Origin: a virus
Taxonomy: Duplodnaviria > Heunggongvirae > Uroviricota > Caudoviricetes
IMG/VR virus record: IMGVR_UViG_2531839666_000011
Direction: 5' to 3' (one strand)
DNA length: 13,866 bases
The position numbers and the translations under genes were made by a program. The notes under the pieces were generated by a model. The model made no database searches. It was not told the DNA's origin and worked only from the letters and a program-made list of their open reading frames with translations. Below, in pieces: positions 1 to 8,238 of the stretch. The first letter of the stretch is position 1; each line of letters begins with the position of its first letter.

Positions 1-2057
1 ATTCCCCCAGAGGCAGGCCACTGAAACGGTGCTCCGTGTCGGCAGTGATGGCGGTGGTCACCAGGCGGCTGTTTTCACCACTGCCACTGGTCAGGCGCAG
101 ACTGAAGCGCACGCCCTTCACCACCCGCGGCGTGTCCCATTTCGCCAGCGCCAGATACTGGCCGTCTGAGGCACTCACCTCCACCGTGAGGTGCTGCACT
201 GCCGGCGGGATGACGCTGTTCAGTGAACCGGAGAGCGGCTCAAAGCGGGCCCCGTTATCCACGATGGCTTCTTTTTCCGGTATGTGCTGCACTGCCGTGA
301 TGGCAAAGGTGCCGTCCGTGTTTTCCCGGATGGAAACACAGCGGAACAGGCGACGACGCAGTGACGGCAGGGAGAGCCCCCACACACCGTATGTCTCCAC
401 GCCATCCGGCAGGGCGCTGACCTGTATCCGGTCAGGGGCCGGTTGTGCAGTGATGTCCACGCGCACCGGCTTACCGCTGCCGTTAATCAGGTTCACCGTC
501 GATGTCCCTGTCTCCGGCAGGGTCACCTCACGGTCCAGCGTCAGGGTACGGCTGGCGGCATCGATGGACAGGATGCGTCCGCCGGTCAGGGTCCCGGCGT
601 AGTCGTTATCACAGATTTCAATGATGTCACCGGGCGTGTGCCGCAGCCCCTGTGACCCGAGCGTGAAATCCACCGTCTGCGTTTCCAGCAGTTCTGTCTT
701 TATCACCCACAGTCCGGCACGGTGGGCCTGACCGCGGCTGGTACAGCCGAACGCGTCCATCTTCAGCAGGTTGCGTCCGTAGCGCAGGATGGCGTCCGGG
801 TCTTCCACCAGTTCCGTGGAAGTCTGCCAGCCGTTCTGCGGGTCGGTGTAATTCACCTCCACCGCCGTGTGCCGGTCCTTCAGGGCACTGAAGCTGTAGC
901 GGAACCCCACGCCGTTATCATCCACCACCACATCGCTGTTGGTGTACGGCCACACCACATCCGACGGGCGGTCCTGAACGAACGTCAGCGTCTGGCCGTT
1001 CCATACCGGCATACAGCGCATCGCCGAGCAGAAATCCCCCAGGACATCCCACACCTTACGCTGCTGTGACAGGTACGCATTAAAGGTCATCCGCGGCTCT
1101 GTGCCCCCGAAACCATCCGGGACCGTCTGGTCGCAGTACTGCCCGATGGCATACAGTGCCCACTTGTCCACATCCGCGGCCCCCAGGCGTTTTCCCATCC
1201 CGTAGCGCGGGTGGGTCAGCATGTCCCACAGGCACCAGGCCGGGTTATTGCTGTATGCCGGTTTCAGACTCCCGTCCCAGATACCGCTGTAGGTGCGTTT
1301 TTCCGGGTCATAGTTTGACGGCACCTGAATGATGCGGCCGCGGATATGGTAGTTCACCACCATCTGCTGGCCACCGAACTGCTCCGCATCCACCTGCAGC
1401 CCCACAATGGCCGTGTTCGGGTAGCACTGTTTCACATCGATGATTTCGGTGTATGACGACCACAGCGTTCTGTTCTGCAGCTGGTCCGTGGTGCTGTCCG
1501 CCGTCTCCCTGACCATCCGGATGTTAAAGGGGCGCTCAGGGAGATTATTCAGAATCACAGACGTCAGGTACTGCGAGGTGGTCTTGCCGTTAATGGTGAT
1601 ATCCTTCTCCGTCACCCAGTGCCCGTTACGCTCAAGCTGAATCAGCAGGCGGACAGAAGAGGGATTACGGTCACCCTTTGAGGTGGTCTCCACCAGTGAC
1701 TGCACCCCGAAGGTGACCCGCAGACGGTCAATGTTCGCTGACGAGATGGTGCGCGTCACCGGCTTTGCCTTCGTCACCTCCACACCCAGTGCGGTTTCCG
1801 CCCCGGAGGACTCAAAGCCTTCCGGTGGTGTCTGCTCCTGCTCCCCGGCACGCCAGACGGCGGTCACACCGTGTATCACGGGATTACCGTCCGTGTCCGT
1901 CAGCGGGGTTTTGTTCACCAGAATACTCTGCAGTCCCTTCACCGGACCTTCCACCGGTCCCTCACCAATGGCATCAATCACGCTCATCATCTGCGTTGGA
2001 TTTGAGATTGTCCTTCGCCTCACGCGGTGTGTGCCCCTTGCCGCCCCCTTTACCCAC
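1..2057 (-). CDS. J: Host specificity / central tail fibre protein J, partial (3' end beyond window start); N-terminal region frameshifted
   Basis: Hand translation of the minus strand from GTG at 2057 gives MGKGGGKGHTPREAKDNLKS (lambda J starts MGKGSSKGHTPREAKDNLKS), then a stop at 1974-1976. The neighbouring frame from ATG-ATG at 1990 reads MMSVIDAIGEGPVEGPVKGLQSI and stays J-like to the window edge (e.g. AYLSQQRKVWDVLGDFCSA near 1078; DGQYLALAKWDTPRVVKGVRFSLRL near 160). GGAGAGGGGGA Shine-Dalgarno-like sequence precedes 2057. Absent from the ORF track because no stop lies inside the window. Confidence 0.9.
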
Positions 2058-2097: not shown

Positions 2098-2131
2098 CCA
2101 GAAAACGACAGGCACCCCGGAGGGTGCCTGT
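2098..2131 (-). terminator. Candidate intrinsic terminator (minus strand) about 50 nt upstream of the J start
   Basis: Perfect 10-bp stem (2108-2117 pairs with 2122-2131) with 4-nt loop cgga; on the minus strand it is followed by CGUUUUCUGG. Confidence 0.5.
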
Positions 2132-2144
2132 GTCATGACGGAAT

Positions 2145-2176
2145 AAAATTTCTGAAATTCTTCACATTTCCGGCAA
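2145..2176. repeat. Direct repeat copy A (32 bp) with internal 13-bp palindrome AATTTC-T-GAAATT
   Basis: aaaatttctgaaattcttcacatttccggcaa; matches copy B at 2324-2355 with one mismatch (t/c at 2167 vs 2346). Contains TCTGA-N6-TCACA. Confidence 0.8.
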
Positions 2177-2323
2177 ATTCCCGTGGAGGAAACCTTGCCG
2201 GATGGGTAGATTACCTGCGGTCAATAAAAGCAATTAATCGCAACTCCTTAAGGTGACTATTCGTTCCTCCCGTTAATATCCAGGTGTATTGCGGGAGCGT
2301 TTTTTATTTCAGCTCCGCAACAG

Positions 2324-2355
2324 AAAATTTCTGAAATTCTTCACACTTCCGGCAA
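2324..2355. repeat. Direct repeat copy B (32 bp) with the same palindrome
   Basis: aaaatttctgaaattcttcacacttccggcaa; 179 bp downstream of copy A; immediately preceded by an imperfect hairpin at 2291-2318. Confidence 0.8.
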
Positions 2356-2439
2356 TTGCCTGTAGCCGCAATAATGACGCTGCGTTACTGTTCTTCTGCC
2401 CAAAAAATAACTCCATAACGTTAATCTTCATCGTTATTT

Positions 2440-2477
2440 CCCGCAGCTCCGCTAACTCTGCGGGATTTTTTTATTTT
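2440..2477 (+). terminator. Candidate intrinsic terminator (plus strand), convergent with the end of gene I
   Basis: 7-bp stem cccgcag (2440-2446) pairing with ctgcggg (2458-2464), 11-nt loop, followed by a-ttttttt-a-tttt (2465-2477). The I stop codon (2477-2479) overlaps the T tract. Confidence 0.6.
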
Positions 2478-3116
2478 CATCCCCGCCCGATAACCACCAC
2501 TTTCCCGTCACCGCCCTCATCACGGGTGCTGATGTCCTGGGATATCCGTCGTGAACCAACCAGCATTTCACCGTAAGGCACCGGCATCGGGTTACCCTGG
2601 GCAATCATGTTGTCCAGTGACGAAAAATACGTGTTCCGTTTACCATTATCTGTTGTCGTGGCAGACGGTGTTTTCGCCCTGGGGGTGAGCATCTGCGTGA
2701 TACCCCCCACCATCATGGCCACCCCAAGATTACCGATGACAGCACCAATACCGGTCCAGCTGAACACATATCCCACAACAGCCAGAACAGCACCGGCCAC
2801 CACCTGAAGAACACCGCCGTTTTTTAGCCCCCTCCGTCCGGGGCACCAGATGGATAACATCCCCGTCATTCAACGGCTCACATACTCTGGAATGAAGCTC
2901 CTGTTCAGATACATCCCTGCCCGCAATGCGTAACTGATACCATCCCTCATACAGTTTCTGCCGGAATCCCGGCACCTGCAGCGACAGGGCACGGATGGCC
3001 TCCGCTGCCGTGTTCACATACAGGCTGATGCGGCGACCAAATCGTTGTAAATCCCCGTGAAGGCAGATACGGACCAGTGGCGGTGACGCCAGACAGAATG
3101 CGTTCGTCGTTGCCAT
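2477..3116 (-). pseudogene. I: Tail assembly protein I homologue, split by a +1 frameshift in an A6 run (possible sequencing artefact)
   Basis: ATG at 3116 with GGGAGAGG upstream. The N-terminal frame reads MATTNAFCLASPPLVRICLHGDLQRFGRR...VIHLVPRTEGAK, then runs into a Cys-rich tail. The C-terminal frame (ORF 2477..2869) resumes NGGVLQVVAGAV...TDNGKRNTYFSSLDNMIAQGN...VVVIGRG, lambda I-like. The switch is at the T6 run 2820-2825 on the plus strand; A5 instead of A6 would restore one ORF. Confidence 0.85.
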
Positions 3117-7480: not shown

Positions 7481-8238
7481 TCACAACCTCCTTCCCTCCT
7501 CCCCGAAACGGACTCCACCGGCGAGGCCCGCCGCCTTCTGCATCAGTACATCATTTTCGTCCGGCATCTCCGTCTGCTCTTCCTCACACGCTGGAGCAAG
7601 CAGACTGAAATCCGCCGGATGCATATCCGGATCGCAAAAAAACAGGCTGAGTACGGCGTACGTCAGCCCGGAAAAATGCATATCCAGCTGGGTATCCTGA
7701 AAATAATGCGTGCAGTAAAAACGTCGCCAGTCGGCATATTCGGTGGATGTCATCCCGGCAAGCATGGCGCGCCAGTCGGCTCTCCCCATCTCACGCGCCA
7801 GTTTCAGGACAAAGTTCAGCTCGCCTTCAAATGCTTTTTTGATGTTACCGGCTCAGTCGCTTCTGCTTTCCCGGTTTGTTCAGGATCGGCATCGTGCCGG
7901 TTATCCAGCATACCTGAAAGATAAAGCACCCGGTTCGTTGCCTGATTCAGTGCATCAGCAGGCCATCCCAGCATCACTTCACGGCGGATCTGCTGCATCT
8001 CTGTCTCCGGAGAGGCCAGAGTGCCTTTGAGGGAATGGGAATGCCATAGCGACATCGCCACAAGCAGGGATGCCGTTTCCAGATATCGCTGGTTAATGTG
8101 CACGGCATCATGCTCCGTTGTCTCCTGTTGTGCTGCGTCTGAAACAAACTTCATATAATCAAACCGCTGCAGCGCGGACAGTTCCGACAGCGTGACGGAC
8201 ACACCGTTATATTCAAATTGTTCTGTTTTCAGAAACAT
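7481..8238 (-). CDS. T: G-T tail assembly chaperone fusion made by -1 programmed frameshift (T part 7481..7840)
   Basis: The T frame is -1 relative to G and open from 7852 to the stop at 7481. After the slip the product reads ...EPVTSKK-AFEGELNFVLKLAREMGRADWRAMLAGMTSTEYADWRRF..., lambda T-like. Arrangement is as in lambda G/G-T. Confidence 0.75.
7816..8238 (-). CDS. G: Tail assembly chaperone G
   Basis: 140 aa, MFLKTEQFEYNGVSVTLSELSALQRF...; same length and N-terminus as lambda G (MFLKTESFEHNGVTVTLSELSALQR...). ATG at 8238 with G-rich Shine-Dalgarno-like sequence. Confidence 0.9.
   Translation of the reverse strand: MFLKTEQFEYNGVSVTLSELSALQRFDYMKFVSDAAQQETTEHDAVHINQRYLETASLLVAMSLWHSHSLKGTLASPETEMQQIRREVMLGWPADALNQATNRVLYLSGMLDNRHDADPEQTGKAEATEPVTSKKHLKAS
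7834..7840 (-). other. Putative -1 slippery heptamer A AAA AAG for G-T recoding
   Basis: In the G zero frame the codons are TCA AAA AAG (S K K), seven codons before the G stop. The -1 frame is open across this site only (it has a stop at 7853-7855 just upstream). Confidence 0.65.

What the first reader, a model, noticed from the sequence alone, without database searches (positions are those of the whole stretch)
2145..2355. Two 32-bp direct repeats 179 bp apart, each with a perfect 13-bp palindrome and a CRP-like TCTGA-N6-TCACA site
Copy A (2145-2176) and copy B (2324-2355) differ at one position. Each contains the perfect inverted repeat AATTTC-T-GAAATT and, overlapping it, TCTGA-aattct-TCACA followed by TTT. 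This is one mismatch from the CRP consensus TGTGA-N6-TCACA, though the mismatch falls on a conserved G. Duplicated palindromic sites at this spacing are typical of operators for dimeric regulators or of a tandemly duplicated promoter or sRNA unit. No good sigma70 -35/-10 pair was found on either strand, so the function is unresolved.
Basis: partly seen in the sequence, partly recalled or inferred. Interest (0 to 1): 0.55.

Follow-up and report, generated by a model that had tools for sequence, protein, structure and literature searches.

The report
Promoter boxes of tandem prophage sRNA genes
The two repeats are the conserved upstream promoter boxes of two small-RNA gene cassettes that sit head-to-tail between the tail genes I and J of an E. 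coli lambda-like prophage; the small-RNA family is already known (PasB / EcOnc22-24), so the finding is real but mostly ordinary.

Summary
The repeat runs 40 nt (2145-2184 / 2324-2363, 36/40 identical), 179 bp apart.

It lies in the I-J intergenic region of a lambdoid prophage tail operon, which is on the - strand. Each repeat heads a + strand, sRNA-like unit that ends in an intrinsic terminator.

Unit B (2324-2472) is a close homologue of two validated Hfq-dependent sRNAs at the same locus: EcOnc22/23/24 (EHEC Sakai) and PasB (EPEC E2348/69). Unit A (2145-2305) is a diverged paralogue.

Across phage contigs the 22-nt core AAAAWTTCTGA-N5-TTCACA is nearly invariant. It sits 24 nt upstream of the -10 hexamer in 49 of 54 distinct promoters, so it spans about -58 to -37. 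It is more conserved than the spacer or the upstream flank.

The closest relative of the whole window carries one cassette. The 179-bp difference is bounded exactly by the box, which indicates cassette gain or loss by recombination between boxes.

The CRP reading is weak:
- the left half is TCTGA in all 42 units picked without reference to the box, never TGTGA;
- the centre is at about -44.5;
- a one-mismatch CRP match is near chance expectation.

The 13-bp palindrome is not conserved (14 of 54). What binds the box remains unknown.

The parts
1..2057 (-). 5' part of the tail tip / host specificity gene J (start GTG at 2057..2055; runs off the left end of the window)
   Evidence: RefSeq annotation of homologous loci. 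MGKGGGKG... reading seen directly.
2108..2131 (-). GC-rich hairpin followed on the - strand by CGTTTTCTGG, just upstream of J. Terminator-like on the tail-gene strand. Present upstream of the first box in most loci.
   Evidence: 10 pairs, 7 GC; same element in E2348/69 and FHI_NMBU_10. Function inferred only.
2145..2184 (+). Box A: copy 1 of the 40-nt repeat. The conserved core AAAATTTCTGAAATTCTTCACA is 2145-2166.
   Evidence: family conservation.
2185..2305 (+). Cassette A body. It holds a non-canonical promoter-proximal segment with hairpin CCGGCAA..TTGCCGG (2171-2201), a possible -10 TAGATT at 2207-2212, a conserved AACTCCTTAAGGTGACTATTCGT motif, and an intrinsic terminator (stem 2267-2297, T-run to 2305). 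It is a diverged 'type A' paralogue of the PasB family.
   Evidence: Fold; alignment with other type-A units; AACCTT sits where the family's -10 should be. Expression not shown.
2324..2363 (+). Box B: copy 2 of the 40-nt repeat. The conserved core is 2324-2345.
2370..2375 (+). -10 hexamer AATAAT of cassette B, 24 nt after the box. Aligns with TATAAT of the E2348/69 pasB promoter. The -35 position reads TCCGGC (poor).
   Evidence: Alignment; tool-called promoter TTCACA-16-TATAAT in E2348/69; fixed 24-nt spacing in 49 of 54 distinct promoters.
2382..2472 (+). Predicted cassette B sRNA, about 91 nt (GCGUUACUG...GGGAUUUUUUU), a homologue of EcOnc22/PasB. Terminator stem 2439-2465, U-run 2466-2472, abutting the stop codon of I.
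   Evidence: The 5' end is predicted from the -10 hexamer, not mapped.
2477..3116 (-). Tail assembly gene I (stop codon at 2477-2479). It carries a 1-nt insertion at 2826 relative to its closest relative, which shifts the frame.

Best explanation
The two repeats are the conserved upstream promoter module of two head-to-tail sRNA gene cassettes. The cassettes are inserted between tail genes I and J of a lambdoid E. coli prophage and are transcribed opposite to the tail operon. Each cassette consists of a box (AAAAWTTCTGA-N5-TTCACA, about -58 to -37), a variable 24-nt spacer holding a weak -35, a -10 hexamer, a roughly 90-100 nt sRNA and an intrinsic terminator. Cassette B is a member of the experimentally validated, Hfq-dependent PasB / EcOnc22-24 family. 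Cassette A is a diverged paralogue whose canonical -10 has been replaced. The box most likely acts in cis on transcription initiation, as the docking site for a host activator and/or the RNA polymerase alpha C-terminal domain. That would let an sRNA promoter with a poor -35 fire in the lysogen while the surrounding tail operon is silent. Because the box is the one stretch shared by all cassette variants, it also serves as the homology at which cassettes are gained, lost and stacked; this gives the 179-bp period here. Shown: the repeat, the cassette anatomy, the homology to validated sRNAs, the conservation and fixed geometry of the box, and the box-bounded indel. Inferred: that the box activates transcription, what binds it, the exact 5' ends, and whether cassette A is expressed.
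For: Location and anatomy. Homology: PasB of E2348/69 maps between the tail assembly gene and gpJ on the opposite strand. Its northern probe is complementary to the terminator sequence that cassette B shares. EcOnc22/23/24 of Sakai map to I-J intergenic regions of Sp15, Sp14 and Sp11. Their probe is complementary to TAACTCC..GTTAATCTTCATCGTTCTCTCCC, and that RNA is about 85 nt and destabilised without Hfq. Independent promoter: in EPEC RNA-seq pasB baseMean is 482-1082, against 5 and 15 for the flanking I and J genes. The tool calls TTCACA-16-TATAAT (11/12) on the pasB strand. Box conservation: 40 of 42 distinct units chosen only by their 3' part carry the strict box, and the other two differ by 1 nt. 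Mean pairwise identity is 0.91 for the box, 0.63 for the spacer and 0.42 upstream. The -10 sits exactly 24 nt after the box in 49 of 54 distinct promoters. Cassette behaviour: arrays B, AB, ABB and BA occur. The closest relative of the whole window (98.2%) has one cassette, and the 179-bp difference is bounded by the box.
Against: No transcription start, reporter or binding data exist for the box in any paper I could find; the 2026 Pas preprint contains the word 'promoter' 0 times. Part of the comparative set was collected with the box itself as bait, and the 3'-anchored control still shares loci with it. Cassette A lacks a -10 at the family position (AACCTT), and no promoter-like site is called in the window region. 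Box A may therefore head a silent or rewired unit. Window-type unit A is at least 97.9% identical in all 27 genomes that carry it, so conservation says nothing about its function. The published PasB 5' end (1466343) lies 15 nt downstream of the start I predict from TATAAT.
Confidence: 0.8

Rival explanations
1. The box is a cAMP-CRP (or other CRP/FNR-family) binding site that makes the sRNA promoters catabolite- or oxygen-responsive.
For: The TGA-N6-TCA core is present and the right half TCACATTT matches the CRP consensus. PasB is more abundant in overnight static LB than in glucose-containing DMEM, as a CRP- or FNR-activated gene would be.
Against: The left half is TCTGA in all 42 distinct units chosen by their 3' part, never TGTGA. 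That argues for selection for C rather than a degenerate CRP half-site. The 16-mer ends 24 nt before the -10, so its centre is 32.5 bp from the hexamer, about -44.5. That is three bp off the class II position (-41.5, established knowledge) and far from -61.5. One-mismatch matches are expected 0.48 times per window by chance. The growth comparison also differs in growth phase and aeration, so it does not discriminate.
Confidence: 0.12
2. The box is an UP element: it recruits the RNA polymerase alpha C-terminal domains directly, with no dedicated regulator.
For: It occupies about -58 to -37, is 68% A+T, and begins AAAAWTT. That resembles the distal UP subsite AAAWWTWTTTT (consensus recalled from Estrem et al. 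1998; 7 of 11 positions by my count). The core -35 is weak in many units, for example TCCGGC in 11 of 54, so an UP element would be useful.
Against: The invariant positions include the G/C-containing blocks CTGA and TCACA, whereas the A/T-rich middle is what varies. That is the opposite of what a pure A-tract element predicts. The proximal UP subsite (A-rich, -46 to -38) is not matched.
Confidence: 0.2
3. The 13-bp palindrome AATTTC-T-GAAATT is an operator for a dimeric (phage) repressor, duplicated for cooperative binding.
For: The palindrome is perfect in both copies of the window.
Against: It is perfect in only 14 of 54 distinct family promoters. The commonest variants read AAATTCTGAATAT or AATTTCTGAATAT. 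Most loci carry a single box (106 of 117 arrays). The box is shared by Stx1, Stx2 and non-Stx prophages, which on general knowledge differ in immunity region.
Confidence: 0.04
4. The repeats have no function of their own. They are only the scar or homology of a recent tandem duplication or recombination event.
For: The 179-bp indel relative to the closest prophage is bounded by the box. Window-type cassette A is nearly identical in all 27 genomes that carry it, so the event is recent.
Against: The same box heads every single-copy cassette too. It stays about 91% identical while the adjoining spacer and upstream flank drop to 63% and 42%. Its distance to the -10 is fixed.
Confidence: 0.08
5. 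The 32-mer is a fragment of a dispersed repetitive element (REP, ERIC or an IS end).
For: None found.
Against: All non-chance matches in viral contigs lie in I-J intergenic sRNA cassettes. The scan of species-representative genomes with the box plus the -10 and 5' motif returned only E. albertii and one suspect 460-bp contig. There are no terminal inverted repeats or transposase genes nearby.
Confidence: 0.01

Closest known systems
PasB sRNA of EPEC E2348/69 (Pearl Mizrahi et al. 2021, PMC8550237; Zhu, Shabalina and Storz 2026 preprint, 10.64898/2026.05.13.724894)
   Same: Same locus (between tail assembly gene I and gpJ) and same opposite-strand orientation. Same box, same 24-nt spacing to the -10, same GCGTTA 5' region, same ..TTAATCTTC.. 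motif and same CCCGCAG/CTGCGGG terminator.
   Different: E2348/69 has one cassette with a strong TTCACA-16-TATAAT promoter. The window has two cassettes, and cassette B has AATAAT with a poor -35. The promoter box and tandem arrays are not discussed in either paper.
EcOnc22/23/24 of EHEC O157:H7 Sakai (Tree et al. 2014, PMC4104026)
   Same: Cassette B is about 94% identical to the Sp15 / VT1-Sakai locus. That RNA is about 85 nt on northern blots, bound by Hfq and destabilised in an hfq mutant.
   Different: Sakai prophages Sp11, Sp14 and Sp15 each carry a single cassette in a 240-bp intergenic region. Targets and function are listed as unknown.
Convergent prophage 'anti-sRNAs' AgvB and AsxR at the PR' moron site (Tree et al. 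2014)
   Same: Short Hfq-binding sRNAs at a fixed position of lambdoid prophages, transcribed against the late operon, occurring as related but non-identical variants.
   Different: Different site (downstream of Q, not I-J), different sequence, and no Rfam AgvB or AsxR match in the window.
Tandem duplicated sRNA genes with shared promoter elements, such as OmrA/OmrB in E. coli and PrrF1/PrrF2 in Pseudomonas (from my own knowledge; both are cited in the Pas preprint)
   Same: Adjacent paralogous sRNA genes whose upstream regulatory regions are conserved while parts of the RNA body diverge.
   Different: Those pairs are chromosomal, with known regulators (OmpR, Fur). Here the regulator is unknown and copy number varies from 1 to 3 between prophages.
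Class II CRP-dependent promoter and rrnB P1-type UP element
   Same: A conserved element immediately upstream of a weak -35. It has a CRP-like right half-site and an A-tract at about -58 to -52.
   Different: The centre is at about -44.5 rather than -41.5. The left half-site carries C instead of the consensus G in every unit examined. The conserved positions are not the A/T ones.

Membership tests
PasB / EcOnc22-24 prophage sRNA family | Gene lies in the I-J intergenic region of a lambdoid prophage, on the strand opposite to the tail genes | tested here: met
   Window anatomy compared with E2348/69 and Sakai Sp15, Sp14 and Sp11.
PasB / EcOnc22-24 prophage sRNA family | Sequence homology to the validated RNAs, including the regions targeted by the published northern probes | tested here: met
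   Cassette B aligns along its whole length with the E2348/69 and Sakai loci. The probes are complementary to its 3' half. Cassette A shares only the box, the AACTCCTTA motif and the terminator architecture.
PasB / EcOnc22-24 prophage sRNA family | Own sigma-70-type promoter and Rho-independent terminator with a U-tail | tested here: inconclusive
   Terminators are present for both cassettes. Cassette B has AATAAT at the family's -10 position but a poor -35, and no site passes the tool's criteria. Cassette A has AACCTT at that position.
PasB / EcOnc22-24 prophage sRNA family | Expressed and Hfq-dependent in the host | not testable with these tools
   Shown only for the EPEC and EHEC homologues.
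CRP binding site | Match to TGTGA-N6-TCACA | tested here: inconclusive
   One mismatch, at the first G of the left half. Such matches are expected 0.48 times per window by chance. TCTGA is present in all 42 distinct units chosen by their 3' part.
CRP binding site | Centre at -41.5 (class II) or -61.5 and further by helical turns (class I) | tested here: not met
   The fixed 24-nt distance to the -10 puts the centre at about -44.5, assuming a start 7 nt after the hexamer. In cassette A a start after TAGATT would give about -60.5, but that promoter is hypothetical.
CRP binding site | cAMP-CRP binds and activates | not testable with these tools
   No binding or mutant data found.
UP element | A/T-rich element at -40 to -60 matching AAAWWTWTTTT / AAAAAARNR | tested here: inconclusive
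   The position fits. The distal subsite matches at 7 of 11 positions by eye and the proximal subsite does not match. The conserved positions include G/C.
Dispersed repeats (REP / ERIC / IS ends) | Many copies at unrelated genomic sites | tested here: not met
   real copies occur only in I-J intergenic cassettes. The box-plus-promoter scan of species-representative genomes found it only in Escherichia albertii and one suspect contig.
Any Rfam 15 family | Covariance-model match at the gathering score | tested here: not met
   0 matches at gathering score. Only chance-level matches at E up to 10.

The most novel reading that the evidence does not exclude
The box is the operator of an as yet unidentified, Escherichia-specific regulator. 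That regulator would co-ordinate a whole family of prophage sRNAs. The I-J junction would then be a cassette platform where sRNA genes with different seeds are stacked and swapped by recombination at the shared box, giving lysogens a quickly changeable set of riboregulators.
Probability: 0.2. Interest if true: 0.55.

Novelty: new member of a known kind. Interest (0 to 1): 0.3.

Why it matters
The finding links two separately named sRNAs, EcOnc22-24 in EHEC and PasB in EPEC. I did not find either paper naming the other as a homologue. It also defines their common promoter architecture. The invariant 22-nt box is a concrete handle for finding their regulator; their targets and role are listed as unknown. 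The results also show that these genes behave as cassettes, with one to three copies and at least two body types, exchanged at the box. That matters for how pathogenic E. coli acquire and vary prophage-borne riboregulators. It does not reveal a new kind of system.

Tried and rejected
- Rfam at gathering and at permissive thresholds: nothing.
- AgvB/AsxR identity, my first guess: no match, and a different locus.
- A promoter on the - strand inside the box, or a - strand sRNA ending at the 2108-2131 hairpin: no -10 or -35 candidates by eye, and none from the tool.
- Similarity of the cassette A-specific segment (ATTCCCGTGGAG...) to the EcOnc32 probe: only 15 of 17 nt with two gaps (13 of 15 identical bases), E = 0.29, so chance.
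- Secondary-structure covariation in the sRNA family: only the terminator hairpin is predicted and its stem never varies, so this is uninformative.
- By-eye comparison of the box with remembered consensus sites (FNR, LexA, Cra, DeoR, ArgR, DnaA box, OmpR, PhoP, PhoB, CpxR, UvrY, IclR, IHF, Fis, lambda CII, sigma-E, sigma-32, sigma-54): none fits in both sequence and spacing. TT(A/C)TTCACA resembles a DnaA box (TTWTNCACA) in some variants only. These are leads from memory, not tests.
- Literature search for the exact box and sRNA strings: 0 papers.
- Tree 2014 peak coordinates for EcOnc22 fall over the hairpin and box region when placed on NC_002695.2. I attribute this to a coordinate shift between record versions, which I did not verify, and relied on the probe sequence instead.

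Full report
**Observation.** Copies 2145-2176 and 2324-2355 differ at one base. The similarity extends to 40 nt, 2145-2184 / 2324-2363, 36/40 identical, 179 bp apart. Both copies contain the perfect palindrome AATTTC-T-GAAATT and the 16-mer TCTGAAATTCTTCACA, which has one mismatch to TGTGA-N6-TCACA. The repeat itself is far beyond chance: the core TTCTGA-N5-TTCACA has 2 matches against 0.06 expected. The CRP resemblance is not. One-mismatch matches are expected 0.48 times per window, and the two matches here are copies of each other.

**Context.** The window is the structural module of a lambdoid E. coli prophage, with all genes on the - strand: portal, protease/capsid fusion, tail genes, tape measure, M, L, K, I and J. 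The repeats lie in the 419-bp gap between the stop codon of tail assembly gene I (2477-2479) and the GTG start of J (2057). No RNA gene is annotated there in any RefSeq record I looked at.

**Anatomy.** On the + strand, opposite to the tail genes, each repeat is followed by roughly 100 nt of unrelated sequence and an intrinsic terminator.
- Cassette A has stem 2267-2297 and a T-run to 2305.
- Cassette B has stem 2439-2465 and T7 at 2466-2472.
- A GC-rich hairpin at 2108-2131, terminator-like on the - strand, precedes J.

The 179-bp period is therefore the length of one box-to-terminator unit.

**Identity.** The northern probe for PasB of EPEC E2348/69 is complementary to the terminator region that cassette B shares. 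PasB maps to NC_011601.1 1466343..1466261, between the tail assembly gene and gpJ on the opposite strand. The E2348/69 intergenic region aligns with cassette B from the box to the terminator.

Separately, EcOnc22, 23 and 24 of EHEC Sakai fall in the I-J gaps of prophages Sp15, Sp14 and Sp11. That RNA gives an approximately 85-nt northern band, was recovered by Hfq CRAC, and is destabilised without Hfq. Its probe is complementary to TAACTCC..GTTAATCTTCATCGTTCTCTCCC, the 3' half of the same RNA. Cassette B is about 94% identical to the Sp15 / VT1-Sakai locus.

The gene downstream of box B therefore belongs to a known, validated sRNA family. A 2021 review lists its targets as unknown. Rfam 15 has no model for it.

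**The box across the family.** I collected loci from IMG/VR in two ways: with the box as bait, and with a 3' pattern of the sRNA as bait.
- Of 42 distinct units defined only by the 3' pattern, 40 carry AAAWTTCTGA-N5-TTCACA exactly and the other two differ by one base. None has TGTGA.
- In a MAFFT alignment of such units, mean pairwise identity is 0.91 over the 22-nt box, 0.63 over the following 24-nt spacer and 0.42 upstream. The 5' end of the RNA (GCGTTA) scores 0.94.
- The upstream context changes completely between first and internal units of arrays and between prophage types, so the box is a discrete conserved island.
- The -10 hexamer (TATAAT 27, AATAAT 13, TATCAT 5, CATAAT 3, AATAAC 1) starts exactly 24 nt after the box in 49 of 54 distinct promoters.
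- In E2348/69 the scan tool calls TTCACA-16-TATAAT, 11 of 12, on the pasB strand.
- The box therefore occupies about -58 to -37, directly upstream of a -35 hexamer that ranges from good (TTCACA) to poor (TCCGGC, as in the window).
- In EPEC lysogens pasB reads are 30- to 200-fold above the flanking I and J genes, so the unit has its own active promoter.

Part of the sample was ascertained with the box itself, and no start site has been mapped. The published PasB 5' end, estimated from coverage, is 15 nt downstream of the start I predict.

**Cassette behaviour.** Among the loci collected, arrays are B (106), AB (6), ABB (2), A (2) and BA (1). Two body types exist.
- Type B has ..TTAATCTTC.. and a CCCGCAG/CTGCGGG terminator.
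- Type A has CTCCTTAAGGTGACTATTCGT and a CTCCCG/CGGGAG terminator.

The closest relative of the entire window (E. coli OkiPb01692, 98.2% over 13.7 kb) has a single type B cassette. The alignment shows one 179-bp gap whose ends fall inside the box. Gain or loss of cassette A by recombination between boxes explains the finding's repeat spacing. Window-type cassette A is rare: 27 of 5426 complete E. coli genomes, all at least 97.9% identical. The family appears confined to Escherichia. The scan of species representatives with the box plus the -10 and 5' motif returned only E. albertii and a 460-bp contig of doubtful origin.

**What the box does.** The best-supported reading is a cis-acting promoter element, judged from its position, its fixed spacing and its conservation above that of the core promoter. 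What binds it is open.

CRP is unlikely.
- The C that breaks the consensus is present in every unit of the unbiased set.
- The site centre is 32.5 bp from the -10, about -44.5, which is three bp off the class II position.
- The only physiological hint is more PasB in static overnight LB than in exponential DMEM. That comparison also differs in growth phase and oxygen.

A pure UP element fits the position and the leading A-tract. It does not fit the pattern of conservation, in which the G/C-containing CTGA and TCACA blocks are fixed while the A/T-rich middle varies.

The 13-bp palindrome is incidental: it is perfect in only 14 of 54 promoter variants. I could not run curated matrix scans. My by-eye comparisons with remembered consensus sites found no convincing fit.

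**Cassette A.** Its box is intact, but the 44 nt that carry the -10 and the U-rich 5' end in other type A units are replaced by a sequence of the same length. That sequence reads AACCTT at the -10 position and forms a hairpin, CCGGCAA..TTGCCGG. A TAGATT hexamer lies 16 bp further downstream. If it were used, the box would be centred near -60.5. Whether this unit is silent, rewired or merely recent cannot be decided from sequence.

**The RNAs.** Alignment folding predicts only the terminator hairpin, and its stem never varies. The conserved single-stranded motifs, AACUCC(U/A)UA and UUAAUCUUC, are the likely pairing regions. The first resembles the anti-Shine-Dalgarno end of 16S rRNA, which is my own observation and untested. 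The RNAs are fully complementary to the I-J spacer of the late transcript, so a cis-antisense role during lytic growth is possible. No I or J identifier occurs in the stored part of the RIL-seq table.

**Verdict.** The repeat is real and functional-looking, and it is explained by a known kind of element. Cassette B is a member of the PasB/EcOnc22-24 family, and cassette A is a new paralogue. The conserved box, the link between the EHEC and EPEC names, and the tandem, box-bounded cassette arrangement do not appear in the papers I could read. They are refinements rather than a new system.

Noticed in passing
window 2826 (within gene I, 2477-3116, - strand): Relative to the closest prophage (OkiPb01692), gene I has one extra base next to a homopolymer run (+ strand ccgTTTTTTAgcc). 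This splits the reading frame into ORFs 2730-3116 and 2477-2869. It is either a defective prophage or a sequencing error.
   Followed up: partly
window 2108-2131, - strand: A strong hairpin (10 pairs) with a short T-run lies on the tail-gene strand between the sRNA cassettes and the J start. It is conserved in most loci, and another prophage type (L021 2500-2545) has a different hairpin at the same place. It may attenuate read-through into J without Q antitermination, or stabilise the J message.
   Followed up: no
window 2246-2254 (cassette A) and 2408-2416 (cassette B); family alignment: The conserved motif AACUCC(U/A)UA in the sRNAs resembles the anti-Shine-Dalgarno 3' end of 16S rRNA (CCUCCUUA), which suggests pairing with strong ribosome-binding sites. 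In type A it is part of the self-complementary CCUUAAGG.
   Followed up: no
L212 (NZ_FWPT01000051.1, 460 bp): A 460-bp contig in a Parendozoicomonas haliclonae assembly is nearly identical to the E. coli O157 prophage EcOnc22 locus and the 3' end of gene I. It is probably contamination of that assembly.
   Followed up: partly
L006 (E. coli FHI_NMBU_10) 755-1270; L059 and L065 (IMG/VR): Three-cassette arrays (A-B-B) and a B-A order exist. The internal junction sequences differ, so stacking happened more than once.
   Followed up: partly
Sakai NC_002695.2 2902714-2902774 (L007 715-775): The Tree 2014 Hfq peak coordinates for EcOnc22-24 fall over the J-proximal hairpin and box when placed on the current record version, not over the sRNA body that the probe targets. 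A coordinate shift between record versions is the likely cause (my recollection is that the older version was about 128 bp shorter), but I did not verify this.
   Followed up: no
window 7481-8238, - strand: ORFs 7816-8238 and 7481-7789 correspond to tail chaperones G and T. The relative's T is annotated as 'incomplete', as expected for the programmed -1 frameshift product G-T of lambda-like phages.
   Followed up: no
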